Part shown: one piece after another, positions 50,808 through 64,000 of the stretch
How the letters are laid out: each line of letters begins with the position of its first letter
Numbering within the stretch: the first letter of the stretch is position 1
Origin: Olavius algarvensis Delta 4 endosymbiont
Lineage (GTDB): Bacteria; Desulfobacterota; Desulfobacteria; Desulfobacterales; CAJINA01
Length of the DNA stretch: 64,000 nucleotides
Reading direction: 5' to 3'
Assembly: GCA_905176665.1 (NCBI GenBank)
Contig: CAJINA010000104.1
Location: forward strand, 36,699-100,698
Made by a program: the position numbers and the translations under genes
Notes under the pieces: generated by a model
What the model saw: the letters and a program-made list of their open reading frames with translations, nothing else
The model's database searches: none
Told to the model about the DNA's origin: nothing

Positions 50808-51180
50808 AGCGCCCTCCAGCTTGAGCTTTTATGAATTGGGGTTATGTGAAACTGAATATTGAAATGCTAATGCACGAGTTTCACAAATGCAAGGCGGCCT
50901 AATCCCCTTAAGCACCTAACATACCGGTATAATGACTCATACGCAATTGGCTGAGCACCGCCATGCTTCTATCAGGAAGGTCATAGAAGAACACTTAGCC
51001 GTTCAGTTTGGTGAGAGAATAGCTGAAAAATTATAGATATATACAGATTTCATATGTGATATAAAAAAGCTGGCCCCGCAAAAAACCAGATTCTGGTTGG
51101 GGCATTTCATGAACACCCGACTAGCGAAGCTGCACTCGGTGCAGCTTTTAAGTGCGACAAATGATTGAGGAGGGCATCCA

Positions 51181-51632
51181 TGGCCTATCAGCTTACAACC
51201 TACGACGACCTGAAAGTGGGGCAAACCGCATCATTACAAAAGACGATTACCGAGAAGGATTTAGACCTTTTTATTCAGATCACGGGCGATGAAAATCCGC
51301 TGCATATTGATGATGACTTTGCCCGGCAAACATTTTTCGGCCAAAGGATCGCCCACGGCATGCTGTCCGCAGCCTTTTTTTCAACGTTGGTGGGCATGCA
51401 TCTGCCCGGTATTGGAGCAATTTACAAATCACAAACGCTTGAATTTCTGCGGCCGGTCTTTGTGGGGGATACCCTCACGGCCTTTTTTGAAATCATCGCC
51501 ATAGACCCTGAGCAGGAACGGATTGAAATTAAGAGCTGGATTGATAATCAGGCCGGTGAAAATGTAATTGAGGGAAAAACAGTAGCCAGCCTGTTGCGCG
51601 GGTTAAAAAAAATGAAGCGGGGGCGACAATAG
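51181..51632 (+). CDS. MaoC-like (R)-specific enoyl-CoA hydratase/dehydratase, hot-dog fold
   Basis: ITGDENPLHIDDDFARQTFFGQRIAHGML hot-dog hydratase motif. SD gaggaggg before ATG 51181; the ORF opens at 51165. Confidence 0.85.
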
Positions 51633-51704
51633 AAATAAACCCTTTTAGCGATTCTGAAGCTTCACTTTATAGCCAGGCCAGCCAGCAGAAGCTGTGGCAT
51701 CGGT

Positions 51705-51800
51705 TGGTGGTGGCGGATAGAGTCAAAACTGCGCCCCACTCTGATTGTAAATGGAATATTACCGTTTAAATTTTCAGGGGGGATACCCCCGGGATATCTA
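51705..51800 (-). repeat. Degraded tmRNA/tRNA 3'-end-like fragment plus GGGAYACC-N4-GGAYAYMT motif (copy 1)
   Basis: tggtggtggcgg-atagagtcaaaactgcgcc resembles tggtggaggcggcgggagtcgaacccgcagcc (63761). Followed by tttaaattttcaggggggatacccccgggatatct. Confidence 0.5.
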
Positions 51801-51880
51801 TGCGAGGGTCTGCTAATATCCAAAAGAGATCAAGTTTACCACTTTCAATATATCAAGCAACTACACCGGCAATTTTACCT

Positions 51881-52990
51881 TCAAGGTTCCCCTCGCCGCT
51901 TTTTAACCATCCAATAAGGCGCCTGGCTGTCTCTACTCAAGATCAATTCAGCCACCTTTAAAAATCCATTTTCCCTGGCATACATCAGGGCGGTTTTGCG
52001 TTTGTAGCATTCGGCGTTTACATTTGCACCGTTATCCAGCGGCAGCCGGACAATCCCTAAGTGACCGTGTTTCGCGGCTAGAATCAATGGTGTCCGGCCA
52101 CTTGCGTTGGTGGGTTCGATATGAGCCCCTTTCTTTAATAGTGTTTGGACAACATGGGTACGGCCCCAGGTCGCGGCAGCGCCGATTGGGGTAACGCCGT
52201 TTTCGTTAGATTTATTTAACTTGGCACCCGCCGATATAAGTGTGAGCACCACGTCCAGATGCCCCCTCTGGGCCGCAAGTATCAGCGCAGTCGAATCATT
52301 ACCTTTTTCACGTTTGTGAACATCCGCGCCTTTCTCGATCAAAAGGATCACAATTTTGATACGGCCGGAATAGGACGCCGCTATAAGGGGCGTAAAACCG
52401 ATAGTTCCACCGTTGGAATTAATGGGAACACCATCGGCCAACAGTTTTGAGACCTGATCGATATCACCTTTTCTCGCCGCATTCACCAGCTGATCGCTGG
52501 GGCTGGGACGATACTTTGTAATCACCGGGTTCAGCCGCTTGCGCAGTAAAAATACCAAAAACCCCATCACGGCACCTGCAAACATCCTCGGTGGCGTCGC
52601 CCGGATATGTTTTGTGATGTCAGCCCAGAATGGATTCTCCCAGAGGATGATCAGAGCCGCTATACCGGCAACCACCGCCCCAAGCCCAATAGCCCCTATG
52701 CCGACCATCCCATCGGGGGCCTGGGGGCCCTCAAGGTCTAAAGCTGAATATAGAATGCCCAGCACCATTCTACCCAGGGGATTATTATATGATGCCAGTC
52801 CACCCAAAATCATGCCCAGGAGGGTTGGCGCAATCAGCCAGAAGCGCGTGTAATGAAGGGCCGCACCCAAAAATGCTCCCAACATCGCACCAGCCGAAGC
52901 ATAGGTGAACGCTATCAGAATCTTTTCGAAGCCATCTTCAGATTTTGATCCGCGTCCGCCCGAATTGGAAAATTGATGGTTCGCCTTCAT
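51881..52990 (-). CDS. Ankyrin-repeat protein with N-terminal multi-TM region
   Basis: About 5 ANK repeats (TALILAAQRGHLDVVLTLISAGAKLN, TPLILAAKHGHLGIVRL..., TALMYARENGF...) after 4-5 hydrophobic helices. Confidence 0.8.
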   Translation of the reverse strand: MKANHQFSNSGGRGSKSEDGFEKILIAFTYASAGAMLGAFLGAALHYTRFWLIAPTLLGMILGGLASYNNPLGRMVLGILYSALDLEGPQAPDGMVGIGAIGLGAVVAGIAALIILWENPFWADITKHIRATPPRMFAGAVMGFLVFLLRKRLNPVITKYRPSPSDQLVNAARKGDIDQVSKLLADGVPINSNGGTIGFTPLIAASYSGRIKIVILLIEKGADVHKREKGNDSTALILAAQRGHLDVVLTLISAGAKLNKSNENGVTPIGAAATWGRTHVVQTLLKKGAHIEPTNASGRTPLILAAKHGHLGIVRLPLDNGANVNAECYKRKTALMYARENGFLKVAELILSRDSQAPYWMVKKRRGEP

Positions 52991-53224
52991 TTGACTTACT
53001 CAAAGTCGGCTAAGAAAATAGTGAGTATCTATTATAGAATTTGTTCTACCTTTTGTCATCCAGTAACGCAGTCCCTGAGTTATACATATCATTGTGGGCC
53101 ATCATCATCGCTAAATAACTCCTTCGATATTCATATATGAAAGGCCTAACTCATTAAATATATTAGTTTTGTCCAATTTTCACGGACCTAAACTGCCTCA
53201 ATGGAGATACAGTTTTTGGGGGGA

Positions 53225-53303
53225 GAAGGTAGCGACGGGAGTCGAACCGGCTACCCTTTTTGAAATCATTGAAGATATTGATATGGCCACGGTACATTCG
53301 CAG
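53225..53303 (-). repeat. tmRNA/tRNA 3'-end-like fragment, variant sharing island-side sequence with copy at 62933 (copy 2)
   Basis: ggtagcgacgggagtcgaaccggctaccc then tttttgaaatcattgaagatattg...gtacattcgcag, the same downstream block as 62965-63012. Confidence 0.55.
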
Positions 53304-53696
53304 AACCGGACACGCTTTATTCATAAAAAGTTTACAGAAAATCCAAATCTTTAGCAGATATCGTGACCGGCAAGAGTAATCGAACACTTGATTATTTGTT
53401 GCCTAAACGACAATTTGAGTTCCTAAATAACTTTCTGACTGGTCGATTATTTGACAAATTAGGCACTTATAGTATATAGTGCCGGTTATGAATATTTTCG
53501 GAGTCGACTTCACATCATCTGACTTTGTGCTGCTGGGGATATGCGGCGGAATTGTAATCTTCCTAATTGCCAACCGCATAGTCGGTGCACGGAAAAAAGG
53601 GGAGAATTAGGATCCCTGCCAAGAATTCTGTTTCACCAGTATTCATAAGGCAGGAGACGCCTCTTTCCAATCTTCAAGCCTCTCCATCTTAAAATT

Positions 53697-53728
53697 GGAG
53701 TGAAGGTTCGATTCCTTCACGGCCCACC
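53697..53728 (+). repeat. Plus-strand tRNA 3'-half fragment (T-arm plus acceptor plus CCA) without a 5' half
   Basis: GAAGG-TTCGATT-CCTTC perfect T-arm, then ACGGCCC-A-CCA. No complementary GGGCCGT acceptor 5' strand within 100 nt upstream. Confidence 0.5.
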
Positions 53729-53939
53729 ACTCTACTATTTGTAATTACAACATAAAGAATTGAAACGCCCTGCCAACACGGTGCCAACAGGTGCCAACAA
53801 ATGGTGGGTTTTTTTATGAAGAAAGGCCTGTGAAGTTGAATCCTAATAGGCCAGATATTCAATGCATATCTCAGGGTGGGGTAACCTGTAACTTAGCGAA
53901 TAGATGCGTAACGCTCGATCCCGCGAGCCAGGCAAGATA

Positions 53940-55289
53940 TTAAGAATCTTCAAAACACCAGGCCGTCATCTCAACGCCTAATTCTTTGACCCGGGCGTTG
54001 ACTTCTTTTAGCACGGCATCAAAGGATGATTCACTGACAAACTCATTCTCGATGCTGAATTTATTCGTGCCGTCTTTCAATATCTTTTGTAGATCTGTTT
54101 GCGGCAGCCTGGATACCCGGTCGCGTAATTGGCTTTGCAGGAGGTGCTCCAGGCGTCGACTAACGAGTTGGGGTTGACTGGCTGTGGTCCGCAGGTAAGT
54201 GTCGGCGTTCACGACATGCCAGGAGGCGGCATACTTTATTGAGACGTTGCCCTTATCGATAGTAAAGAATTTTCCGTTTCCTTCTAGTTTGTAGAATTTC
54301 TCCTCTGAAACCCGTTTGGTTTGCTCAAAAAATGGAATTTTAATATTGAAACCGGATTTGGATTGAACCCGATCGGGTTTTCCAAACCTGGATATAATGA
54401 CTTGTTGTCCGGGCTCAACTTTATACACCGCATCAAATGCCATCGCCAGGCCGATACCAGCTGCCAGGATTAAAACCGCAGGCCACAGAAATCGTGAACC
54501 CAGAATTTGATTCGAAATAGATTTAAGGCTCGCTTTTCCCTGCACCCGCCGGCCCGTCAATTCTGCATATGAAAGGGCGAGAATGGACAGGTACCATAAG
54601 ATAAAATAAGTTTCCAGGATGCCTGCCAGAAGTTTTATCAAGGTCTGGTTCACGTACATCTCGAAAGCTATACTAATAGAGCCGTTGATCAATCCCGGAA
54701 TAAGTACAAGCAGTATAAGAAGTTTGAACCCGCTGCCCTTTGACAGGTTCCATATACGCCTGGGGGTGACGTCGTGCCTGGCCGAAATGGCCGGAAGTGC
54801 CAAGGCAAAGCGAACCACGGGGTATGCCGCTGCGCCCACCACCAAAACCCAAATCAAGACGGATCCAGATGCCAACCAGGGTTTCGGGCTGTTGATTGCC
54901 ATGGAAAACCAGACAATTGCAGGAAGGACCAAATACAAAAGCAGTCCCAGAAATAGTGCCAGGAACAGACACAGTAACACCAACACCAGTAAAAAGAGGC
55001 CATACCGGCGCCACATCCCGGGTTCGGATTCGTGTCCTGAAGGGCCGATCACCAAGTGGCGCTGATATTCCAAACCAAACCAGGCGATTGATGTCCATAC
55101 GGGAAGCTGGGCAAACAATTGAAAGGTAGCGTTTAGCTTGAAATAGCTGGCTGTTAACAGCACAGCGATAGAGACAGCCAGAGCAAATCCTGGCCTCAAA
55201 AGTGCCTGCCATGATGTTGCGCTCAAACTGAATGGTGCAATAAGTGCTCTGGCTAAAATCGACCATATGCTCAATTGAGGAGTAGTCAC
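53940..55289 (-). CDS. Polytopic membrane protein with C-terminal SPFH/band-7 (HflC/K-like) domain
   Basis: About 8 TM helices then VEPGQQVIISRFGK...GFNIKIPFFEQ SPFH-like core. Confidence 0.55.
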   Translation of the reverse strand: MTTPQLSIWSILARALIAPFSLSATSWQALLRPGFALAVSIAVLLTASYFKLNATFQLFAQLPVWTSIAWFGLEYQRHLVIGPSGHESEPGMWRRYGLFLLVLVLLCLFLALFLGLLLYLVLPAIVWFSMAINSPKPWLASGSVLIWVLVVGAAAYPVVRFALALPAISARHDVTPRRIWNLSKGSGFKLLILLVLIPGLINGSISIAFEMYVNQTLIKLLAGILETYFILWYLSILALSYAELTGRRVQGKASLKSISNQILGSRFLWPAVLILAAGIGLAMAFDAVYKVEPGQQVIISRFGKPDRVQSKSGFNIKIPFFEQTKRVSEEKFYKLEGNGKFFTIDKGNVSIKYAASWHVVNADTYLRTTASQPQLVSRRLEHLLQSQLRDRVSRLPQTDLQKILKDGTNKFSIENEFVSESSFDAVLKEVNARVKELGVEMTAWCFEDS

Positions 55290-55630
55290 TGAACGATAGC
55301 CCCCTGAGAGTATAGGATGATCATTACATTTACCTTAGATCATAAGATAATTCCAGATCCCTTGCAAGAATCCTCGCATAAGGGCTCCAGTGTGTTTAAC
55401 TCTCAATCAATATGAGATCCGGCCGAACCTTTAGGTGCAATTGAGTGTGGTTTTGACGTGACTATTGGATGGAGGGTTTTTGCTAGCGTCTTTGTTGAAA
55501 TGCGTACAGCGAGAACCGGTATGTTTGGTGTTTGTAAGGTGCATATTTAGGCAAAAAATAAAATTCCGATAATTGCGCTAAAGTCCATACTGGAGAAAAT
55601 ACCACGTTTGATTAACGTAACTTTTGAAGT

Positions 55631-55665
55631 TGATGACGGCGGCGGGGTTCGAACCCGAGGTAGCC
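55631..55665 (-). repeat. Degraded tmRNA/tRNA 3'-end-like fragment (copy 3); a second T-arm-like remnant lies at about 55753-55775
   Basis: gacggcggcggggttcgaacccgaggtagcc versus gaggcggcgggagtcgaacccgcagcctacc. ggggatttgaacc at 55755. Confidence 0.4.
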
Positions 55666-56012
55666 TATAGAGGATAAGGGTTTTCTGTGGCACACCACCA
55701 CATAGATACCACCAATAGAATATCAAAGGGAAGATTAGTAATAGATGTGAAAAAGATAGCACGGGGATTTGAACCTATACCTCCGTATTCCCTTGGTTTG
55801 CTGAAAGGGCTCTGTTTCAGACCTACCTGTCTGCTTTGATTGCAAAACCTTATAATAAAAAAATGATGTAAAAACTATGGGTTATATGTTATGTTTTTCA
55901 AGAACATTACCGTCAGCAACATCGGTAACATTTGCTTGGCCGAGTACGTTGGTTTCGAATACGATACATTTACAATCTTCAGGTGTATAACTAAAGCTGG
56001 TCTTAGAATCAT

Positions 56013-56276
56013 ATGATAAGTTTTCTCTTTATAACCGGGATCGTACTAATATTTATAATTATCCTGGTGCTATTATGGCTTAAAATGGAAAAAGTGTATG
56101 ATTCGCAAATTAATATCGAGAATATCGATAGTTTTTACTTTTTTCTCTTTGGCATTAGCAAGGATGTCTACGACAAAGAAACTTGGATAAAAAACCAAAA
56201 ACGATACTTAATTAAATTAGCGATATTTACAGCATGTATCACCATGTCAGGAACATTATTGATATTGTTTATTTGA
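56013..56276 (+). CDS. Small hydrophobic hypothetical protein inside a low-GC islet
   Basis: 87-aa ORF, two TM, codon usage very A/T-rich relative to surrounding genes. Confidence 0.25.
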   Translation: MISFLFITGIVLIFIIILVLLWLKMEKVYDSQINIENIDSFYFFLFGISKDVYDKETWIKNQKRYLIKLAIFTACITMSGTLLILFI

Positions 56277-56462
56277 GACAATCAAGCAGTATTGGCAATT
56301 TGTTAATACCGGTATAACAGATACGAAAAATTTCTATCAGGGTTACTGTATTTGTGATATCTCCCGCCATTGCAAATTACGGTGAATTCTTGCCGGGAGT
56401 TAAGGCCAAGATTAGGAAGGTACTTACTGTTCTTACATAATTACGGGAGTATGATTTTATAA

Positions 56463-56849
56463 GTGAAAATTCTATTGATTGAGGATGTTCGGGTAGAAAG
56501 AAGGAAAATAAAAAGATGGCTGGAAAGGTTTGGATACGAGGTCATCGAGGCTTCCAATGGCATTGAAGGGCTCAAACTCTATCATGACCATGCACCGGAC
56601 CTGGTAATATCAGACATCGTGATGCCCGAGAGTGAAGGTATCCAATTGATAACTGATCTCAAAACCGCTGACCCCCACGCGACGATATTCGCTATGTCGG
56701 GTGCCGGCAGAGAGCGAGGCGAATACCTTTCCCTGGCAGAGGGCATCGGCGCTGTCCGTTCGTTTGTCAAACCGATCGATAAGAATGCACTCTTGAAGGC
56801 AATTAAGGAGTTTTTTCCAGATAAGCCGTTATTGGATGAACAAGATTAG
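56463..56849 (+). CDS. Single-domain response regulator (CheY-like), GTG start
   Basis: ILLIEDVRVERRKI...DLVISDIVMPESEG...K receiver motifs. Confidence 0.8.
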   Translation: MKILLIEDVRVERRKIKRWLERFGYEVIEASNGIEGLKLYHDHAPDLVISDIVMPESEGIQLITDLKTADPHATIFAMSGAGRERGEYLSLAEGIGAVRSFVKPIDKNALLKAIKEFFPDKPLLDEQD

Positions 56850-58084
56850 ATCTTCTTTGTGCCATCGCTTTCGAGAGTGTATGCCGGAAGCCGTACCGTA
56901 AATGTGGTACCCTTTCCACGTTCCGACCGAACTTGCACCTCTCCATTGTAAGCAGCGACCATAGACCGCACACTGGCAAGCCCCAGCCCCGTGCCTTTGT
57001 CCCTGGGTTTTGTACTAAAATCAGGTTTAAATATTTTCTCAAAATTGTCACTTTCGATCCCCTCACCGGTATCTTCAATCTCGATAATAACCCCCCCTTC
57101 GCTGCTGCGGGTCTTGATCCTGAGAAATTTTAGCGGGGTTGCTTCCATGGCATCAATGGCATTTTTTATAAGATTGTCAAAAATCTGTTTGAGTTGAATA
57201 TAATTGCCATGGACAGGTAAAAGGTCTTTCTGGAGATCCAGCTTCTTTTCTATTTCATTTTTAAAAGTTGCGTTAAGATTGAAGAACTCCATTTCGTCAT
57301 CTATAATTTCATTGATATCCACTGGCTCCGGTTGATAGAGAGCACGGTTTTTTGAATGCGCGAGCACTGAATCAATAATCTTCTCAAGTTTATCGGCACC
57401 GCTAAGCAGCACGCTATGCATTCTGTTCAACAAGTCTTCATCCGGAGGGCTGGGCTCCAAAGCAATTTGAGAGATGTGCAAAGCACCAAATATAGCTTGC
57501 AAGGGATTGTTCAGATTGTGCACAAGCTGCGCGGCGTATTTTCCAATCTCCGCCTGATTATACAAATCCAACACCTGGTTTGTGCGATATTGAACAGTCT
57601 TGTGAAGCTGGCGGTTGGCTTGTTCCAATTCCATCAAAATTCGCTGTCTATCTTGCTGGATAATGGACATCTCCAAAGACTGACGTACCACAATTTTGAG
57701 CTCATCTGTCTTGTAGGGTTTCAAAACGTAGCGATAAACTGACCCCCTATTGATTGCATCAAGCAGAGAATCGGTATCGCTGGCGCTCGACACGATCACA
57801 CGCAAGACCTCCGGCTTTTTTTCTTTGAGCCGCTCCAGCAGTTCAAGCCCATCCATCACAGGCATCATTAGATCAGTCACGACAACATCGATTTTTTCAG
57901 AATCAAGTATTTCAATGGCCTGGGCACCATTTTCAGTGAATATTGCCTGGTACGGTTCCGCGGCCACTGTCTTTCTGATTTTGGCCAACGTAATGCGATC
58001 ATCTTCGACAAAGAGGACTTTTCGATTTTTCATTAACTTACCGTTTTTTATAGAGTTTATAACTGGGCAGAGACCAACAAGCAA
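56846..58084 (-). CDS. Response-regulator/histidine-kinase hybrid (N-terminal REC, HisKA, HATPase_c)
   Basis: N-terminal KVLFVEDDRITLAK...DVVVTDLMMPVMDG. H-box AQLVHNLNNPLQAI. G-boxes DTGEGI / GTGLGL. Confidence 0.85.
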   Translation of the reverse strand: MLVGLCPVINSIKNGKLMKNRKVLFVEDDRITLAKIRKTVAAEPYQAIFTENGAQAIEILDSEKIDVVVTDLMMPVMDGLELLERLKEKKPEVLRVIVSSASDTDSLLDAINRGSVYRYVLKPYKTDELKIVVRQSLEMSIIQQDRQRILMELEQANRQLHKTVQYRTNQVLDLYNQAEIGKYAAQLVHNLNNPLQAIFGALHISQIALEPSPPDEDLLNRMHSVLLSGADKLEKIIDSVLAHSKNRALYQPEPVDINEIIDDEMEFFNLNATFKNEIEKKLDLQKDLLPVHGNYIQLKQIFDNLIKNAIDAMEATPLKFLRIKTRSSEGGVIIEIEDTGEGIESDNFEKIFKPDFSTKPRDKGTGLGLASVRSMVAAYNGEVQVRSERGKGTTFTVRLPAYTLESDGTKKI

Positions 58085-58223
58085 TCATCCTGAAAGATTG
58101 GAATCCGAATGAAAGACCATGAACTTATCGAGGCGATAGAAATGAATAAAAAATGAGTGCACAGGTGACACAGGTGAATCCAATATCTATCCACGCCCAA
58201 TACCCAGTATCAGTCGGAGCCAC

Positions 58224-58925
58224 TTAAAGCGTCCCCGGTTGACTGATAGCCTCATCCTTAATACGAATGGCATCGAAAAGTATAGCCTTTAGTCCACCTT
58301 TGAGTTTTTTTTCGGTTATTGCGCATTCGTCTTGAATGGAAATTGTGACGTGGTCCCAGGCCAATATTTCATAGGCCGATTCAATACCTTGGCGGTCGTT
58401 GATCCGCGCATCCATAAAATCCCCATTGTGGAAGAATAGGACGCCCTGTTTTTGGGTATCTCTGTTGACAACTCTTACGGTGCAGGTTTTATGATCCATC
58501 TCGATAAGTTGAATGAACATTTCCATCGAAACGGTCTGGAGAGTACCGCCTTCGTTTTCTTTCTTCAACATTTGTAGAATTTGGTCCGCCAGTTCCTCCA
58601 CAACGAAGGGTTTTTCTAAATAAGCTATCGCACCGGTGTCCATGACCCTCTTTTCGGACGTCGGACTCCCGTACGCGGTCAAGATAACTACCTGAATATC
58701 GGGATATTTATCTGAAATTTCGGATAGTAAAGCATAGCCGTCCATTCTCGGCATCTGAAGGTCTGTAACAACTATGGAAATGTGATTTTCCTTTAAAATC
58801 TGCTGGGCTTCTATCCCATCTGCTGCCAGGAATGTAGTAACTATCTCTGAATAAGGCTTGAGTTTCTTGCTGACCAAGTTCCTCAAGACTCTATCATCAT
58901 CGACAAATAGGATTTTTTTGTTCAC
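58224..58925 (-). CDS. Response regulator: REC plus DUF4388-like output domain
   Basis: KILFVDDDRVLRN...IVVTDLQMPRMDG receiver. C-terminal GTLQTVSMEMFIQLIE...GVLFFHNGDFMDAR...ESAYEILAWDHVT resembles DUF4388. Confidence 0.65.
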   Translation of the reverse strand: MNKKILFVDDDRVLRNLVSKKLKPYSEIVTTFLAADGIEAQQILKENHISIVVTDLQMPRMDGYALLSEISDKYPDIQVVILTAYGSPTSEKRVMDTGAIAYLEKPFVVEELADQILQMLKKENEGGTLQTVSMEMFIQLIEMDHKTCTVRVVNRDTQKQGVLFFHNGDFMDARINDRQGIESAYEILAWDHVTISIQDECAITEKKLKGGLKAILFDAIRIKDEAISQPGTL

Positions 58926-59429
58926 GCGAGCTCCTAAAAGTGATGAAACAAGTATACAATTACCTTTTACCGGTTTTCAAATCATCATGGATTAATTTAG
59001 TATTTACAAAGCAATCATTGTGCCACTTCATACAGAACACACAAAAATCCCCGGCAGGCGGTTGTTCCCTCAGTTTCTAACGGGAAATTTGTTTTAAATG
59101 AAATTCAGTGGATACTTACCAAATAGCTTCCACCTTTTTTATCTCAGCAAGACCAGGATAACTGTCGGTCAGACAATACGGCAACCATGGAAAGAGATTC
59201 CAAAGTTCTAACATTTTACCCGGTATGTCGCCTGTTGACATAATATCTGATTGCGGGCATAAAAGTTCCTACCGGTGACTGCAGCGCGATATTCGGAGCG
59301 CGGAATCCGGTCCACTAAATATCGGGGTCAATCCTGCTACGTCGCATACTGTGAAGTTTATCTTTTTCCGTTCCTGAAAAACGAATTCTTAAAACCCGCA
59401 AGCGATTCCAACGGACAGGTGGTGTCGCG

Positions 59430-60272
59430 ATGAGTCAAAGAAACTATATTTGGATGCTTGGGTGGAAGCTCCTGTTGCTTCCCGCCTCTGCGGATGCCTG
59501 CTCCATGTGCGTGACCGCCTCTGCCGACAAGATTCTGCCGCCTGTTGAGACTTGGGCGCTTTGGCTGACTATACTTTTTTTGCTGATATCTCTAATCGGT
59601 TCAATAACCGGAGAGAGATTAAGCGGTATTCCCTCCTTCCTGAGGGCGTTTATAGTTATTAGCGTGCTGCTTTTGGCCGGTGCCGGATTCCTTGGGATCT
59701 GGTTTATGGTGGTCCTTGCCCTTCCATTGATGATTTTTTGTGCCGGTGTCCTCAGGACACACCTGCGCTCGCAAGAGCGTCGCTTCCATGTGTTGAAGGT
59801 GTCGCTGGCCTTTGTGGTTATCGCTGTTTTTATAGGGCTTGGCGGATTAACCGCCCATGTGCATCTGACTCGCACACCCGCAGAATACGCAATCAAGTGG
59901 GCGCATACGGCTCCGGGTCGGCTGACCATGGAAGCCTTGAAAGGAGAGGGGCGGTCGGCATTGCCGCAGTTTCGCCGGATTGCGGCGGAGATAGAACCAC
60001 GCAGGTCGGGGGTGGCCAGCGACGTCATCGCGCGCTACGGCGATCCTGAACGGGATGTGCCGCTTCTCATCGACGTGCTAAGACGCGACGGGGGAGAATC
60101 GCTCGCCTCGCGAGATATCGAAGCCGCATTGACCCGACTCACCGGTCTCACACTGCCGCCCGGCTCAAATTATGTCCAATGGAGTAACGCCTGGAAAAAG
60201 AGCGGAAATCCTTTCAAACTGGAAGAATCGCTACCTGACACAAGGTCGCCGGGACCGGTAGGATTAAAATGA
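59430..60272 (+). CDS. Hypothetical polytopic membrane protein
   Basis: 280-aa ORF, 4-5 TM helices, Arg/Asp-rich C-terminal soluble domain, no motif recognised. Confidence 0.45.
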   Translation: MSQRNYIWMLGWKLLLLPASADACSMCVTASADKILPPVETWALWLTILFLLISLIGSITGERLSGIPSFLRAFIVISVLLLAGAGFLGIWFMVVLALPLMIFCAGVLRTHLRSQERRFHVLKVSLAFVVIAVFIGLGGLTAHVHLTRTPAEYAIKWAHTAPGRLTMEALKGEGRSALPQFRRIAAEIEPRRSGVASDVIARYGDPERDVPLLIDVLRRDGGESLASRDIEAALTRLTGLTLPPGSNYVQWSNAWKKSGNPFKLEESLPDTRSPGPVGLK

Positions 60273-60278
60273 AAAAAA

Positions 60279-60380
60279 GTGCGGTGGCGGCGGTGAAGGC
60301 GCGCTGGCGTACCACTCGTATTTTCCGAGCAACATTATATAGTTAAATTTTATAGTGGGACACCTCCGGGACACACAAGT
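60279..60380 (-). repeat. Degraded tmRNA/tRNA 3'-end-like fragment plus GGGACACC-N4-GGACACAC motif (copy 4)
   Basis: gtgcggtggcggcggtgaaggcgcgc followed by ...tagttaaattttatagtgggacacctccgggacacaca. Confidence 0.5.
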
Positions 60381-60477
60381 AAGATTTGGACCTAACCCCA
60401 CCGAATCACAAGAATTTTATACTACTCGTAGAACCCCACCGCCAACCGCATGTTCGAGTCGATTCAGGTAAATTGAT

Positions 60478-61146
60478 TCATTTAAGTTTCATTTCGTATT
60501 TCTTGTAGCTTATAGAAACGCCGGCCCGGCTCGAATGGTTGATGGTTGTCTGAAAATCCGGGCGGCTGTGAACATAATCCATAAAGTCCTGTATCCCTCT
60601 GCTCCACCCTGCCATAGACATATTATGGGCGGTAAAACAGCCCCCGACTGTCAGCTTCGGTGCGATAGCCTTGAAGTAATTGGTATACCAGTCCTTGTCT
60701 GCGTCGCTGAACACAAAGTCGAAAGGTCCTTCCAAATCTTTTACCAGAGCATGAGCATCGGCGAGCCGGGCATCTATATATTGGGATAGGCCGGCCTTAT
60801 CGAAATTATTTAAAGCTTCTTTATATCTGCGCTGATCAATTTCGATGGTGATGAGTTTCCCACCGGTTTTGCTCAGCGCCCATGCAATCCAAATTGCTGA
60901 GTGGCCTGTGGATGTTCCTATTTCAAGGGCTCTCCGGTAGTTGTGTTTTACAATGATGTCATACAGGAGCTTGCCGTCCGCCATGGGCACGTTCATATCT
61001 CGCCAGCTCGATCGGTGGCTTTCTAAAAACGCTGTCACCCTGCCGTCCAGTTCAGGATTCCGATTGATTTCACCAGCCTCAGCAAAACCGATAAGACCAG
61101 CCAGGGCCACTGTCAGCAGCAGGCACCTCATTTTGATTGTTTTCAT
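60478..61146 (-). CDS. Secreted class I SAM-dependent O-methyltransferase (family 3, caffeoyl-CoA OMT-like)
   Basis: Signal peptide MKTIKMRCLLLTVALAGLIGFAEA. ALEIGTSTGHSAIWIA (motif I), ITIEID, FDFVFSDADKDWY. The ORF extends to 61248. Confidence 0.8.
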   Translation of the reverse strand: MKTIKMRCLLLTVALAGLIGFAEAGEINRNPELDGRVTAFLESHRSSWRDMNVPMADGKLLYDIIVKHNYRRALEIGTSTGHSAIWIAWALSKTGGKLITIEIDQRRYKEALNNFDKAGLSQYIDARLADAHALVKDLEGPFDFVFSDADKDWYTNYFKAIAPKLTVGGCFTAHNMSMAGWSRGIQDFMDYVHSRPDFQTTINHSSRAGVSISYKKYEMKLK

Positions 61147-61542
61147 TAGAATTGCTACCTCCAAAAACTTAATAATCCCCAATGGATCCTCGACGCTGCG
61201 GATCATTATATTTGTCGAATCCCTGTTAGTCGGCGTACCATATTCCAATGATGGTTATTGATCTGATGACAATCAAGCGGAAAAGAGAGACACAGTGATA
61301 GAAGTGCTAAAGATAATTGATACTACATCTCGACCTGTCCATCGCCCTTTACGGAAAAGCCGTGAGCGAATTCGAAAGATTGGAAAGCGAAGGCAGACTT
61401 TATTACTATAGCAAATTTAGGGGCGAAAATGGGCGATTAAGCCTGTTTCAGAGGAATTTTTACGCTATTCTGCGGGCAATGTATGTTACTTAGCGTGGCC
61501 CGCACCATAGCTGCCTAAGAAGCAGATATGTTAATGATTTAA

Positions 61543-61640
61543 GTGGAGGACCGCGGGAGTCGAACCTGTGTCCTACCCATTTTTTTCAATTATATCTGAA
61601 GGATAACATTTGGGGCGGGGTACCTCGGGGATACATGTAC
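61543..61640 (-). repeat. tmRNA 3'-portion-like fragment (about 100 nt) with GGGGTACC-N4-GGATACAT motif (copy 5)
   Basis: gtggaggaccgcgggagtcgaacctgtgtcctaccc ... gaaggataacatttggggcggggtacctcggggatacat parallels 63761-63860. Confidence 0.6.
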
Positions 61641-61750
61641 ATAGCAGATAGTTGTAGTTAAACGCCAAACTGTGCGGCGCGCCCCTTGCGTCCGCACCAC
61701 TGACATGCTAGGCATCGTCGTCAATAGATTTATTCAAAATCGAAGATCCA

Positions 61751-62272
61751 CTATTCAAAGGTAGTCTCAATAGGTGGCGGTGACTTGAGAGTTTGCTGAA
61801 CAACACAACACTCCTTCGCGGCAGCCTGGAGGTGCTCTAACAGTCTCGGCTGAGTTCCTTCCTTCACGTTCATCTTTACCTCGCATTTCATGGCCTGAAA
61901 TCCAACAGGCACATTCCGATCCATCATCAAAGCACCACGAACATCTGCGGTAGCCGTTACTCGGACCTCCAAGTCAATGAGTTCGATGTTCATCAAGTTT
62001 GCGACCATCCGAATGGTCGAGTCTTGGCAGGCCGCTAACGCGGCGCAAAGCAGATCTCCAGGTGTCGGAGCATCGTGTTTTCCGCCGACCGCTGCATGGA
62101 CGCCAACCGGCACCGAAACGCCACAGCCATCCATAGGTTCGACCTTTGAATGAAAAGGATCTGAAGCAATATCACCGGATGTCTTTGCATGGTCTGTAAC
62201 CATGGCCAGCTCTGGTTCTCGCGTATACTGTGCCCTAAGAGGTTTTTGCGCTTCTAACACACTTGGTTGCAT
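61751..62272 (-). CDS. OsmC/Ohr family peroxiredoxin-like protein
   Basis: Two conserved Cys in the expected context (MDGCGVSV...GDLLCAALAACQDSTIR). Start taken at ATG 62272; the ORF extends to 62440. Confidence 0.75.
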   Translation of the reverse strand: MQPSVLEAQKPLRAQYTREPELAMVTDHAKTSGDIASDPFHSKVEPMDGCGVSVPVGVHAAVGGKHDAPTPGDLLCAALAACQDSTIRMVANLMNIELIDLEVRVTATADVRGALMMDRNVPVGFQAMKCEVKMNVKEGTQPRLLEHLQAAAKECCVVQQTLKSPPPIETTFE

Positions 62273-62932
62273 GTTGAAATCTCCTTTGTTGTGATACCTA
62301 TCGCGGTCTCTATTTCGAGCAAGAGCGTCTAATCTTGTTTCACCGGGAAAAGAAAGGGGAGTAGGGACTGAATGCAGTATTTCTGTGTCAGCGTGCAAGC
62401 GATTATTAGCCCTTGCTTCTATTCTCGACATTCTTATCAAGCCGACAAATCAGGTATTAAAAACTTTTAATTACTATTGGTGTAGGAAATGGGAATGAAG
62501 TCTTTTGAAAGATTTATCAGTACCACGTTGTGGCATACATATACTGAGGAGGTTTTTTGTTTTGTCAAGGATGGACTGGAAAACACTTATTCGGCCAATA
62601 TTACAAATAGGGGCAATTCAATAGTGGTAACGTTTTCAATTTTGCCTCACAAGTACTATGATAAAGAAAGAGTTGACAATGGAAGAAGTTTGAAACAGGA
62701 AAACATTATGTAACCCACCTAATTTATATGATATATTAGAGTTTATGTCGTACAGCTTGCCAGAAAACCAATATATCATTCTTAGCAAGATATGGTGATA
62801 TTATCAAATTATGACAGGTTTAAATTGCTCCTGCGATCGTGCAGGATTCAATGGTAGGATTACACTGCTGATGGGATACCACTTTTGAGCAATGAATATA
62901 TATATAACAACCTGATTTTGTTAAATATTTAA

Positions 62933-63012
62933 TGGTGGAGGCGGCGGGAGTCGAACCCGCTGTCCCCCTTGAAATCATTGAAGATATTGGCGGGGCCGCA
63001 GTACATTCGCAG
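62933..63012 (-). repeat. tmRNA 3'-end-like fragment (29 nt identical to 63761-63789) plus variant island-side block (copy 6)
   Basis: tggtggaggcggcgggagtcgaacccgc identical to the copy at 63761, then diverges into tgtcccccttgaaatcattgaagatattg...gtacattcgcag, the block also found at 53253-53303. Confidence 0.65.
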
Positions 63013-63102
63013 TAACGTATTGAAAAACGAACCCAGCGTGAACAGCTACCAAGATAGAATATAGCGTTGACAAATGGTAACATAAATGTTACCTTCTTGG
63101 CC

Positions 63103-63432
63103 ATGATCGTAGTCAAGGAATATATCAATTCTAAAGGCCAAAGCCCTTACGCCAAGTGGTTCAACCGCCTCAATGTTGTGGCAGCCGCGAAAGTCGCCAC
63201 CGCTTTAATCAGAATGGAGCAGGGCAACTCTTCCAACTCCAAACGTCTTGGTAGCGGAGTTTTGGAATATAGAATTGATTTTGGTCCAGGATACCGCATC
63301 TATTTTGGTCGCGATGGCGACAGGATTGTGATCTTGTTAGGGGGCGGTACCAAAAAGCGCCAGCAAAGTGACATAGAAAACGCAAAGGTGCTTTGGAAAG
63401 AATACAAAAGGCGAAAACGCCAGGAGGGCTAA
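63103..63432 (+). CDS. Type II toxin, RelE/ParE superfamily (HigB-like addiction-module killer protein, HI1419-like)
   Basis: KEYINSKGQSPYAKWF...GVLEYRIDFGPGYRIYFGRDGDRIVILLGGGTKKRQQSDIENAK matches the killer-protein family. Paired with a downstream antidote gene. Confidence 0.75.
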   Translation: MIVVKEYINSKGQSPYAKWFNRLNVVAAAKVATALIRMEQGNSSNSKRLGSGVLEYRIDFGPGYRIYFGRDGDRIVILLGGGTKKRQQSDIENAKVLWKEYKRRKRQEG

Positions 63433-63434
63433 AA

Positions 63435-63752
63435 ATGGCACTCACGAGAGATTTTAAAGAGACTATTAAAAACCGGATTGAACGTGAACCGGCATTTCGC
63501 GAAGCGTTACTCAAAGAAGGGATAGAGTGCCTTTTAAACGGAGAAGTGGATACCGGTAAAGCTATTTTGCGTGATTATATAAACGCCACAATCGGTTTCG
63601 ATGCTTTAGGCACGGCCACGGCCAAATCCCCTAAAAGCCTTATGCGCATGTTTGGCCCTAAAGGAAACCCTCAAGCTCGCAACATTTTTGAAATCATCGC
63701 ACATCTGCAAAAACAGGAAGGGTTCCATTTCAAGGTTCAGACGGTTCGTTGA
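63435..63752 (+). CDS. Addiction-module antidote protein (HigA-like, HI1420-like)
   Basis: MALTRDFKETIKNRIEREPAFREALLKEGIECLLNGEVDTGKAILRDYINATIGF. Overlapping/coupled to the toxin gene. SD ggaggg. Confidence 0.7.
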   Translation: MALTRDFKETIKNRIEREPAFREALLKEGIECLLNGEVDTGKAILRDYINATIGFDALGTATAKSPKSLMRMFGPKGNPQARNIFEIIAHLQKQEGFHFKVQTVR

Positions 63753-63760
63753 TAATTTTG

Positions 63761-64000
63761 TGGTGGAGGCGGCGGGAGTCGAACCCGCAGCCTACCCAAA
63801 TTTTATTAACAATTATAGAAGGTTAACATATTGAACGGGATACCGCCAGGATACATAAGCGGTATTAGTGGGATATTTTAAGCGTATCACAAGGTATCTT
63901 AAGCTGTAAAAGTCAAAGACCTCCCGGACAGTCAGCCCTCTCGGGTCAGTGATTATTAGGCGGCCTCCTTTGACAATTCTTCTCGACGTTTTTTACCAAG
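63761..64000 (-). ncRNA. ssrA: Probable tmRNA gene (ssrA), 3' about 240 nt; the 5' part lies beyond the window end
   Basis: Minus-strand 3' end ...GCGGGTTCGACTCCCGCCGCCTCCACCA: 5-bp T-stem, TTCGACT loop, acceptor 3' strand CGCCTCC with U70-type wobble position and discriminator A plus CCA (tRNA-Ala/tmRNA-like). No matching 5' acceptor within 100 nt, so not a tRNA. GCC GCC TAA TAA lies about 195 nt upstream of the 3' end, as for a tag-ORF end. Confidence 0.4.

What the first reader, a model, noticed from the sequence alone, without database searches (positions are those of the whole stretch)
51700..64000. Probable ssrA (tmRNA) 3' end at the window edge and a 12-kb upstream array of at least seven ssrA-3'-like fragments delimiting small cassettes
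The minus-strand sequence ending at 63761 has a perfect T-arm (GCGGG-TTCGACT-CCCGC), acceptor 3' strand CGCCTCC-A-CCA with the alanine-type U70 position, no 5' acceptor nearby (so not a tRNA), and GCCGCC-TAA-TAA about 195 nt upstream, compatible with a tag-ORF end. Fragments of the same 3' end recur in the same orientation at 62933 (29/29 identical, then divergent), 61543, 60279, 55631, 53225 and 51705 (progressively degraded). Several carry about 100 nt of gene-internal-like sequence. Between them lie unrelated one- to four-gene cargo sets and a low-GC patch. ssrA is a documented hotspot for tandem island integration with displaced 3' ends, and that pattern fits here, although no integrase survives in the window.
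Basis: partly seen in the sequence, partly recalled or inferred. Interest (0 to 1): 0.75.

Follow-up and report, generated by a model that had tools for sequence, protein, structure and literature searches.

The report
Fossil ssrA attachment-site array, no gene
The last 12 kb of this window, from a sulfate-reducing symbiont of a gutless marine worm, holds a row of leftover attachment-site scars (copies of the last ~30 bases of the tmRNA gene) left by mobile elements that inserted one after another; the supposed tmRNA gene end and its "tag" are one more scar plus the end of an insertion-sequence transposase, so this is an ordinary, already described kind of locus.

Summary
The repeated tmRNA 3'-end fragments are real and non-random. 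Two are exact 28-mers (63761, 62933), and that 28-mer is the exact 3' terminus of authentic tmRNA genes in about 115 of 119 public loci. Four degraded copies lie at 61542, 55631, 53224 and 51705. A seventh, at 60279, is recognisable only through its flanking arm. All are on the minus strand and all lie within 51.7-63.8 kb.

The headline claim is wrong. The copy at 63761 is not the end of an intact ssrA. tmRNA homology stops 28 nt from the CCA end. The upstream sequence is an element arm shared with three other fragments. The "GCCGCC-TAA-TAA tag end" is the C-terminus of an IS481-family transposase (...ELSKEAA**), whose element ends at 63905. That insertion sequence (IS) is why every public contig stops there.

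The roughly 65-80 nt upstream arms form two families (A, four copies; B, two copies). Neither aligns to tmRNA.

Between the scars lie 0.8-4.6 kb units with no integrase: a RelE/ParE toxin-antitoxin pair, OsmC, an O-methyltransferase, a two-component set, a Band7 protein and an ankyrin protein. Their GC is low, and their order is the same in all sampled populations.

Best reading: a fixed, decayed tandem array of ssrA-targeting integrative elements, of the kind described in Dehalococcoides. Whether the intact ssrA lies just beyond the IS could not be tested.

The parts
63905..64000 (-). Right end of an IS481-family insertion sequence. It holds the last 14 codons of the transposase (...LGKKRREELSKEAA), the double stop TAA TAA at 63953-63958, and the terminal inverted repeat ...GGGAGGTCTTTGACTTTTACA ending at 63905.
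   Evidence: Other copies of the same IS (L007, L011, L012, L155) share this sequence up to ...TTTTACA and then diverge. The transposase matches NF033577 IS481 at 254.7 bits against a cutoff of 224. All public contigs end about 43 nt beyond the window.
63761..63788 (-). Core A1: an exact 28-nt copy of the tmRNA 3' end (T-arm, 3' acceptor strand and ACCA). It is a displaced fragment, not the gene.
   Evidence: nhmmer E=2.7e-8, model positions 103-130 only.
63789..63860 (-). A-type arm of A1. It carries GTATCC twice at an 11-nt period, followed by an AT-rich stretch. It is homologous to the arms at 61574, 60312 and 51737 and not to tmRNA.
   Evidence: an arm-only HMM built from A3+A4 finds A1 at E=4e-4.
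63103..63752 (+). Unit 1 cargo: a RelE/ParE-family toxin (63103-63432) and its antitoxin (63435-63752). The antitoxin stop lies 9 nt from the CCA of core A1.
   Evidence: TIGR02683 at 99.5 bits and Pfam Gp49. The same core-to-antitoxin junction occurs in an unrelated metagenome contig, L136. The toxin-antitoxin pair alone occurs in other contexts in L135 and L138-L143.
62933..62965 (-). Core B1: 33 nt, GGAC(A)GCGGGTTCGACTCCCGCCGCCTCCACCA. This is the longest tmRNA-derived block in the array.
   Evidence: 25.1 bits; E=4.6e-9, model positions 99-130.
62966..63022 (-). B-type arm of B1 (CTGCGAATGTAC...ATATCTTCAATGATTTCAA), shared with the arm at 53256.
   Evidence: family D3, 77 nt at 81%; exact 21-mer, E=1e-6.
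61751..62713 (.). Unit 2 cargo: an OsmC-like protein (61751-62272, minus strand) and a 72-aa AT-rich ORF (62495-62713, plus strand).
61543..61573 (-). Core A2: a degraded tmRNA 3' end, GGACACAGGTTCGACTCCCGCGGTCCTCCAC.
   Evidence: (E=0.0014).
61574..61640 (-). A-type arm of A2.
60478..61182 (-). Unit 3 cargo: an O-methyltransferase (Methyltransf_3).
60279..60380 (-). A3: an A-type arm (60312-60380, containing TGTCCCGGAGGTGTCCC) followed by a core-equivalent stretch (60279-60311) that is too degraded to recognise on its own.
   Evidence: Arm-only HMMs built without A3 recover it at E=0.022 and 3.6e-5. The core scores 9, which is noise level.
56013..60272 (.). Unit 4 cargo: a 280-aa hypothetical protein (plus strand), a response regulator with DUF4388 (minus), a hybrid histidine kinase (minus), a response regulator (plus) and an 87-aa ORF (plus). 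This is the low-GC patch.
55631..55662 (-). Core C: a degraded tmRNA 3' end, ..CGGGTTCGAACCCCGCCGCCGTCATCA, with an arm found nowhere else.
   Evidence: 23/32; E=1.3.
53940..55289 (-). Unit 5 cargo: a membrane protein with an SPFH/Band7 domain.
53698..53729 (+). A second kind of tDNA scar, on the opposite strand: a 30-nt tRNA-Met(CAT)-type 3' end, GTGAAGGTTCGATTCCTTCACGGCCCACCA.
   Evidence: The 28-mer is the exact 3' end of a tRNA-Met gene in IMG/VR contig L154. No full tRNA is present here.
53224..53311 (-). B2: a B-type arm (53256-53311) plus a degraded core (53224-53255).
   Evidence: 23/32; E=0.41.
51881..52990 (-). Unit 6 cargo: a membrane protein with ankyrin repeats.
51705..51804 (-). 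A4: an A-type arm (51737-51804, containing TATCCCGGGGGTATCCC) plus a degraded core (51705-51736). It is the last scar before the chromosomal flank.
   Evidence: 24/32; E=2e-4 with A4 left out of the model.
51165..51632 (+). Flank: a MaoC-like dehydratase gene that converges on the array. It marks the start of sequence with backbone-like gene content.

Best explanation
Window 51705-63904 belongs to the Olavius algarvensis Delta 4 endosymbiont, a sulfate reducer. It is a decayed tandem array left by serial site-specific integration of mobile elements into the 3' end of the tmRNA gene (ssrA).

How the array formed (inferred): each integration regenerates the gene from element DNA and displaces the old 3' end. 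The result is an attR-type junction made of an element-specific arm followed by a 17-33 nt copy of the ssrA terminus. Each newcomer inserts next to the gene and pushes older units away. That explains the single orientation and the best-preserved copies at the high-coordinate end.

What is present (shown): seven junctions survive. Four have A-type arms, two have B-type arms and one has a unique arm. They bound six complete units of 0.8-4.6 kb that carry only cargo, with no integrase.

Later events: the integrases and most of the element DNA have been lost (inferred). The array is now fixed in the symbiont population (shown by identical order in all contigs). An IS481 element later inserted 116 nt upstream of the newest fragment (shown).

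The 63761 copy is one of the displaced fragments, not the gene (shown). Its supposed tag ORF is the IS transposase C-terminus (shown). That the intact ssrA lies further along the minus strand, beyond the IS, is inference.
For: 1. Origin of the core. The 28-mer is the exact 3' terminus of ARAGORN-called tmRNA genes in 24 of 30 loci tested. In 115 of 119 loci it has the tmRNA context TAAGCATGTAG...CGGAC.
2. Non-randomness. Six cores reach at least 22/32, all on one strand and within 12 kb, against none in shuffles. T-loop motifs occur 6 times against 0.39 expected.
3. Extent of homology. tmRNA homology ends 17-33 nt from the CCA in every copy. This is what a crossover in or just before the T-arm would give.
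4. Arm families. Arms group into families confined to the array. A-type arms are recovered by leave-out HMMs at E=2e-4 to 0.025. B-type arms share an exact 21-mer. A1 carries GTATCC repeats at an 11-nt period, and a comparator locus (L073) carries three GTTGTTCA repeats at the same period in front of its displaced fragment.
5. Foreign composition. The array has 45.5% GC against 51.7% for the rest of the window. Array genes have GC3 of 0.36-0.59 against 0.63 +/- 0.06 for backbone genes.
6. Comparators. About 10 of 123 authentic ssrA loci have same-strand displaced fragments 0.1-5 kb downstream. Several of those small units carry toxin-antitoxin genes. One Desulfobacterales species has three different integrases directly after smpB-ssrA in different samples.
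7. Published precedent. Tandem ssrA islands bounded by ssrA direct repeats are described in Dehalococcoides. There a non-ssrA motif lies just upstream of the repeat, and some units lack integration genes (PMC3146451).
Against: - No integrase gene or detectable integrase remnant exists anywhere in the window.
- The intact ssrA was not seen. The contig ends in the IS in all 24 contigs read. A contig that may bridge this IS copy (L007) shows no tmRNA in its ~475-nt far flank.
- Six units reduced to 0.8-4.6 kb imply repeated loss of every integration module.
- No presence/absence polymorphism of units was found among about 48 contigs from many samples.
- The degradation gradient is not strictly monotonic. 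A3 is worse than C, B2 and A4.
Confidence: 0.7

Rival explanations
1. One reading: the sequence ending at 63761 is the true 3' end of an intact ssrA that runs off the window, and GCCGCC-TAA-TAA is the end of its tag reading frame.
For: The T-arm, the acceptor strand with U70 and the CCA are perfect. Rfam tmRNA gives a truncated hit at 63761-64000 with E=5.6e-6.
Against: That hit scores 22.9 bits against a gathering score of 47, and only the last ~30 nt align with confidence. The profile of authentic tmRNA 3' regions aligns over 28 nt only. The upstream 70 nt are homologous to the arms of three other fragments. The segment 63905-64000 is an IS481 end, and the 'tag' is ...RREELSKEAA** of its transposase, found identically in other IS copies with unrelated flanks. 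Tags in related Desulfobacterota read ADDYNYALAA.
Confidence: 0.02
2. The array is real but is no longer next to ssrA, or never was in this genome. It could have been assembled in another host and arrived as part of a larger island. Alternatively, recombination between IS481 copies could have separated it from ssrA.
For: The contig ends in a multi-copy IS. These symbionts carry and express many transposases (PMC3684830, listed; only its abstract as shown in that search result was seen). The possible bridging contig L007 shows no tmRNA within ~475 nt beyond the IS. The array is invariant across samples. A tRNA-Met-type scar lies inside one unit, which shows that some of this DNA has a history at another target gene.
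Against: The two copies nearest the contig end are perfect 28-mers, as expected next to a live target. The orientation and the decay gradient point to a gene beyond 64000. ssrA arrays elsewhere lie directly downstream of the gene (PMC3146451).
Confidence: 0.2
3. The units are small cassettes that remain mobilisable. Each arm plus core would be a minimal attachment site recognised in trans by an ssrA-specific integrase encoded elsewhere. The locus would then work as an integron-like platform for accreting cargo (a CIME-like mechanism).
For: The units are small, hold one to five genes and never contain an integrase. Four unrelated cargos share a conserved arm with phased direct repeats. The core-to-antitoxin junction recurs in another organism. 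Cis-mobilisable units with no integrase have been proposed for Dehalococcoides ssrA islands.
Against: Five of the seven cores are too degraded to be likely substrates. No unit polymorphism was seen across about 48 contigs. No arm-plus-core match was found in viral contigs or in the roughly 150 fetched loci. No integrase was identified.
Confidence: 0.07
4. The fragments are a dispersed tRNA-like repeat or small-RNA family (MITE-like or SINE-like) and have nothing to do with integration.
For: A-type copies are about 95 nt long and contain a TATAAT-like box.
Against: No copies occur in the other 51 kb of the window. No conserved fold was found: -4.9 kcal/mol and almost no covariation. Promoter-like sites are not enriched. 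There are no inverted termini. The core equals the ssrA terminus exactly.
Confidence: 0.03

Closest known systems
Tandem ssrA genomic islands (ssrA-GIs) of Dehalococcoides (McMurdie et al. 2011, PMC3146451)
   Same: Multiple units lie downstream of ssrA, each bounded by a direct repeat of the ssrA 3' end. A conserved non-ssrA motif lies immediately upstream of each repeat. The insertion point is in the T-loop/T-arm region. The cargo is strain-specific. Some units lack integration genes and are discussed as cis-mobilisable or fixed.
   Different: In Dehalococcoides the repeat is 20 bp, and 16 islands keep a six-gene integration module with a serine recombinase (DsiB); the units are of phage-genome size and vary between strains. 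Here the cores are 17-33 nt, no recombinase of any type is present, the units are 0.8-4.6 kb, the order is invariant across samples, and the gene itself was not observed.
tDNA-integrated genomic islands as defined by Islander/TIGER (PMC4383910, PMC12424338)
   Same: The hallmark is a regenerated target plus a displaced 3' fragment that mark the island ends (abstract shown). The tmRNA gene is a classic target.
   Different: Islander requires an integrase gene and the intact tDNA. Neither is present in the available sequence.
Cis-mobilisable elements (CIMEs) and accretion at att sites (known from Streptococcus ICEs; named in PMC3146451; otherwise from my own knowledge)
   Same: [quoted passage not shown]
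   Different: CIME status requires functional att sites and a cognate helper element. Here most cores are degraded and no helper is known.
Prochlorococcus islands built by tycheposons (bioRxiv 10.1101/2020.12.28.424599)
   Same: Islands lie next to tRNA or tmRNA genes. Newcomers push older elements further into the island. Partial tRNAs and degenerated elements are scattered through the islands.
   Different: Tycheposons carry tyrosine recombinases and replication modules, and fragmented integrases are still visible. None are visible here.
Integron cassette arrays
   Same: A one-orientation row of small, mostly single-gene units separated by short recombination-site-like repeats.
   Different: There is no IntI, attI or Pc promoter. 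The repeats are tDNA-derived direct repeats, not imperfect-palindrome attC sites (weak fold).

Membership tests
tmRNA gene (ssrA, Rfam RF00023) | Detected as a tmRNA by ARAGORN or by the Rfam model at its gathering score | tested here: not met
   ARAGORN finds 0 genes. Rfam at gathering threshold finds 0. The best sub-threshold hits score 25.1 and 22.9 bits against a gathering score of 47, driven by the last ~30 nt.
tmRNA gene (ssrA, Rfam RF00023) | A tag reading frame that ends in a hydrophobic ..AA followed by a stop, inside the RNA | tested here: not met
   The candidate GCC GCC TAA TAA terminates the IS481 transposase ORF (...ERPHRGYRNQGRRPIETFELGKKRREELSKEAA**). The same sequence occurs in other IS copies.
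tmRNA gene (ssrA, Rfam RF00023) | Conserved 3' body upstream of the T-arm (..TAAGCATGTAG..~25 nt..CGGAC) | tested here: not met
   This body is present in 115 of 119 authentic loci. No window copy aligns upstream of model position 99 of 130.
tmRNA gene (ssrA, Rfam RF00023) | A 5' acceptor strand and tRNA-like domain that pair with the 3' end | not testable with these tools
   If such a strand exists it lies beyond the IS.
Tandem array of integrative elements at a tDNA (displaced-fragment attR sites) | Direct repeats identical or near-identical to the 3' end of the target gene, all in the orientation of the gene | tested here: met
Tandem array of integrative elements at a tDNA (displaced-fragment attR sites) | The intact target gene at the head of the array | not testable with these tools
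   The contig ends in IS481. A SmpB-based search did not list the Delta 4 ortholog. The IS-based search gave a different copy.
Tandem array of integrative elements at a tDNA (displaced-fragment attR sites) | An integrase gene in each element, usually next to attL | tested here: not met
   No gene called in 53.4-64 kb has a Phage_integrase or recombinase domain. tblastn with five integrases from ssrA-adjacent islands found nothing better than E=0.046, and that hit lies outside the array.
Tandem array of integrative elements at a tDNA (displaced-fragment attR sites) | Cargo that is compositionally or phyletically foreign | tested here: met
   GC is 45.5% against 51.7%, and GC3 is lower in the array genes. 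Homologs of the toxin-antitoxin pair occur in unrelated contexts.
Tandem array of integrative elements at a tDNA (displaced-fragment attR sites) | Presence/absence polymorphism of units among related genomes | tested here: not met
   The gene order is the same in all contigs inspected, from ENA, JGI, Logan and NCBI samples. No sister species was available for comparison.
Cis-mobilisable element (CIME) | Flanked by att sites and lacking integration and transfer genes | tested here: met
Cis-mobilisable element (CIME) | att sites still functional, and mobilisation by a cognate integrative element | not testable with these tools
   Testing needs excision-junction reads or an experiment. Five of the seven cores are degraded.
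Integron | An IntI integrase with attI and Pc, and attC sites with an imperfect-palindrome structure | tested here: not met
   No integrase is present. The repeats are direct tDNA copies with no conserved hairpin beyond the T-arm.
IS481-family insertion sequence (element at 63905-64000+) | A DDE (rve) transposase matching the IS481 family model, terminal inverted repeats and a target-site duplication | tested here: met
   NF033577 at 254.7 bits against a cutoff of 224; Pfam rve and rve_3. The inverted repeats are TGAAAAAGTTAAGATCTTCCC and TGTAAAAGTCAAAGACCTCCC, and copy L155 has a 7-bp duplication GATAAAG. Only the right end lies in the window.

The most novel reading that the evidence does not exclude
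The units are not dead remnants. They would be a family of miniature integrative cassettes without an integrase, each consisting of cargo plus an A-type or B-type arm and an ssrA-mimicking core as a minimal attP. An ssrA-specific recombinase encoded elsewhere in the symbiont genome would capture, stack and perhaps shuffle them. ssrA would then act as an integron-like platform for acquiring genes in a host-restricted symbiont. The GTATCC direct repeats at an 11-nt period would be the recombinase arm-binding sites.
Probability: 0.07. Interest if true: 0.6.

Novelty: new member of a known kind. Interest (0 to 1): 0.22.

Why it matters
For annotation, the result is a warning. A perfect T-arm, acceptor strand and CCA with a nearby '...AA-stop-stop' can look like a tmRNA gene end while being an attachment-site scar next to a transposase C-terminus. 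The real ssrA of this symbiont still has to be located.

Biologically, the locus records at least seven successive integrations at one hotspot in a horizontally transmitted, IS-rich animal symbiont. The acquired genes (a toxin-antitoxin pair, OsmC, a methyltransferase, a two-component system, and Band7 and ankyrin membrane proteins) became fixed after the mobility genes were lost. The comparator survey suggests that small units without an integrase, often carrying toxin-antitoxin genes, just downstream of ssrA are common across phyla. This fits the idea that addiction modules help island remnants persist. None of this departs from known mechanisms.

Tried and rejected
1. Extending the contig. 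All 24 contigs read that carry the antitoxin stop about 43 nt past the window. A metagenome scan with the terminal 43-mer returned only other IS copies.
2. Finding the true Delta 4 ssrA.
   - smpB lies directly upstream of ssrA in 11 Desulfobacterota loci, but the SmpB search did not list a Delta 4 protein.
   - The most widely sampled SmpB candidate belonged to a free-living Desulfobacterales species.
   - The transposase route gave a different IS copy.
3. L007 as a bridge across this IS copy. Its 6-nt right flank matches the L003 variant of this locus, but the target duplication is only 5/7. Its left flank has no tmRNA, no A-type arm and no ORF. I treat it as weak evidence only. My first impression that this flank held another A-type element was not supported by the HMMs.
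4. A-type arms as diverged tmRNA body. Rfam loosely aligned CTATAATTGT to CUAAGCAUGUAG, but the tmRNA 3' profile gives no extension. Rejected.
5. A-type element as a structured small RNA or a promoter unit. No conserved fold and no promoter enrichment. Rejected.
6. Arm-plus-core patterns in viral contigs. No hits.
7. Synteny of the flank (MaoC) or the cargo with ssrA loci of other genomes. None found.
8. Integrase pseudogenes. None found by tblastn.
9. Similarity of the B-arm to the antitoxin 3' end (TTGAAATCAT...). Short and probably chance; not pursued.

Full report
**Source.** Exact protein look-ups assign the window to the Olavius algarvensis Delta 4 endosymbiont, a sulfate-reducing symbiont of a gutless marine worm. 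The toxin is CAD7841208 and the methyltransferase is CAD7841201. The species is described in PMC9587655.

**Check of the observation.**
- The minus-strand sequence ending at 63761 reads ...GCGGG TTCGACT CCCGC CGCCTCC A CCA, as described.
- ARAGORN finds no tRNA or tmRNA in the window. Rfam at gathering thresholds finds nothing.
- The 25-mer GGTTCGACTCCCGCCGCCTCCACCA occurs exactly twice, at 62933 and 63761, both on the minus strand, against 0 expected. The shared block is 28 nt, not 29.
- An ungapped scan with the 32-nt tmRNA terminus gives at least 22/32 matches only at 51705, 53224, 55631, 61542, 62933 and 63761. All are on the minus strand, and 30 shuffles gave none.
- Gapped scores are 28 (A1), 30 (B1), 20 (A2), 16 (A4), 15 (B2), 14 (C) and 9 (A3). 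The null 99.9th percentile is 9.
- T-loop motifs occur 6 times against 0.39 expected, all between 53 and 64 kb.
- So six fragments are real by sequence alone. The seventh, at 60279, is supported only by its flanking arm.

**Are the fragments ssrA-derived?** Yes. In 24 of 30 loci tested it is the exact 3' end of an ARAGORN-called tmRNA with tags such as ADDYNYALAA. In 115 of 119 it is preceded by the conserved ...TAAGCATGTAG...CGGAC.

**Is the 63761 copy the gene?** No.
- The Rfam hit at 63761-64000 scores 22.9 bits against a gathering score of 47. Only the last ~30 nt align with confidence.
- A 130-nt HMM built from 110 authentic tmRNA 3' regions aligns to the window copies only over its last 28 nt (A1), 33 nt (B1), 31 nt (A2), 17 nt (B2) and 20 nt (C). 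It never reaches further upstream.
- All 24 public contigs read that carry the neighbouring antitoxin end about 43 nt beyond the window.
- A metagenome scan with that terminal sequence returned contigs in which it is the 3' end of a transposase gene...NHERPHRGYRNQGRRPIETFELGKKRREELSKEAA, then TAA TAA. The sequence then runs to a common end...GGTCTTTGACTTTTACA, after which each contig diverges.
- The protein is an IS481-family transposase (NF033577, 254.7 bits against a cutoff of 224).

**The arms.**
- The 65-70 nt upstream of four cores (63789-63860, 61574-61640, 60312-60380, 51737-51804) are mutually homologous. They share TRTCCNNGNGGTRYCCC, which occurs 4 times in the window against 0.17 expected and only in these arms.
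- Arm-only HMMs built from two or three copies recover the omitted copies as the next-best hits in the window, at E=2e-4 to 0.025.
- Two other cores, at 62933 and 53224, share a different arm: 77 nt at 81% identity with an exact 21-mer at E=1e-6. The core at 55631 has a unique arm.
- None of the arms aligns to tmRNA. They have no conserved fold and are not enriched for promoter-like sites.
- In A1 the GTATCC repeats are 11 nt apart. A comparator locus, L073, has three GTTGTTCA repeats at the same period in front of its displaced fragment. I read the arms as the element-side (P-arm) halves of attR junctions, possibly carrying integrase arm-type sites. This is inference.

**Content between the scars.** Reading along the minus strand:
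- Unit 1: a RelE/ParE toxin and its antitoxin.
- Unit 2: a small ORF and OsmC.
- Unit 3: an O-methyltransferase.
- Unit 4: a 280-aa hypothetical protein, a response regulator with DUF4388, a hybrid histidine kinase, a response regulator and a small ORF.
- Unit 5: a Band7 membrane protein.
- Unit 6: an ankyrin membrane protein.
- Flank: a MaoC dehydratase gene that converges on the array.

No integrase domain or remnant is present. The array has 45.5% GC against 51.7% for the rest of the window. Its genes have GC3 of 0.36-0.59 against 0.63 +/- 0.06 for backbone genes. The gene order is identical in all contigs inspected from many samples.

**Comparators.**
- In one free-living Desulfobacterales species, smpB-ssrA is followed directly by three different integrase-bearing elements in different samples.
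- About 10 of 123 authentic ssrA loci show same-strand displaced fragments 0.1-5 kb downstream. Several of those small units hold toxin-antitoxin genes: HicB-like, an MNT-type nucleotidyltransferase and AbiEi. None that I inspected had room for, or showed, an integrase.
- In an unrelated metagenome contig, L136, the antitoxin stop again lies 9 nt from a degraded ssrA core. In other contigs the toxin-antitoxin pair occurs without any core.
- McMurdie et al. describe tandem ssrA islands in Dehalococcoides bounded by ssrA direct repeats. A non-ssrA motif lies just upstream of each repeat, insertion is in the T-loop region, and some units lack integration genes and may be cis-mobilisable or fixed.
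- Prochlorococcus islands similarly accumulate partial tRNAs and degenerated elements as newcomers push older ones inward.

**Mechanism.** The best-supported account is serial site-specific integration at the 3' end of ssrA. Each event leaves an arm-plus-core attR. The newest scars lie closest to the gene and the oldest furthest from it, which fits the two perfect copies at the high-coordinate end. Integration modules were later lost, the cargo became fixed, and an IS481 inserted 116 nt upstream of the newest scar. The origin, orientation, extent and grouping of the repeats, the foreign composition, the identity of the IS and the absence of an integrase are shown. The order of events, the role of the arms and the position of the intact gene beyond the IS are inferred.

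**What could not be settled.** I could not reach the true ssrA of this genome. One short contig, L007, may bridge this very IS copy, because its 6-nt right flank equals the L003 variant of this locus. Its far flank has no tmRNA, arm or ORF. If L007 is a true bridge, the gene lies more than 0.5 kb beyond the IS or is not adjacent.

**Verdict.** The tandem-integration interpretation is supported in outline. The locus is a new example of a known kind and of modest interest.

Noticed in passing
window 53698-53729 (+): A 30-nt tRNA 3' end (GTGAAGGTTCGATTCCTTCACGGCCCACCA) lies on the opposite strand inside unit 5. Its 28-mer equals the 3' end of a tRNA-Met(CAT) gene in a 215-kb IMG/VR contig, and the upstream sequence diverges. 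It looks like an att scar from a different tDNA target.
   Followed up: partly
window 63905-64000 (-) and loci L007-L015, L155: A multi-copy IS481-family element with inverted repeats TGAAAAAGTTAAGATCTTCCC and TGTAAAAGTCAAAGACCTCCC. Copy L155 has a 7-bp target duplication, GATAAAG. The element breaks every public assembly at this point. At least seven distinct flanks were seen in the worm-symbiont metagenomes.
   Followed up: partly
window 63103-63752 (+); L136 3446-3487; L137: Near-identical copies of the RelE/ParE toxin-antitoxin module occur in free-living sediment metagenomes. In L136 the antitoxin stop is again 9 nt from a degraded ssrA core. In L137 a 29/32 core lies 175 nt away. In seven other contigs no core is present.
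   Followed up: partly
loci L027, L033, L063, L073, L086, L090, L093, L095, L120: Authentic ssrA genes in Acidobacteriota, Desulfobacterota and other groups are followed within 0.1-5 kb by one or two displaced 3' fragments. The enclosed small units often carry toxin-antitoxin genes (HicB-like, MNT nucleotidyltransferase, AbiEi). Short ssrA island remnants without an integrase appear to be common.
   Followed up: partly
L144-L147 (one Desulfobacterales species, four samples): An identical ptsI-smpB-ssrA backbone is followed by three different tyrosine-integrase elements. This shows strain-level turnover at ssrA.
   Followed up: no
L057 (Desulfosarcina sp. MAG) 652-683: An isolated exact 28-nt ssrA core lies directly after a dnaK-like C-terminus, with no tmRNA body. 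It is another displaced fragment, away from any visible ssrA.
   Followed up: no
window 55765-55775 (-): A further T-loop-like motif (GGTTCAAATCC) lies about 110 nt upstream of core C. It has a poor stem and was not assignable to any tRNA.
   Followed up: no
window 49071-50807 (-): A 578-aa protein with a caspase (Peptidase_C14) domain lies just outside the array, next to the MaoC gene.
   Followed up: no
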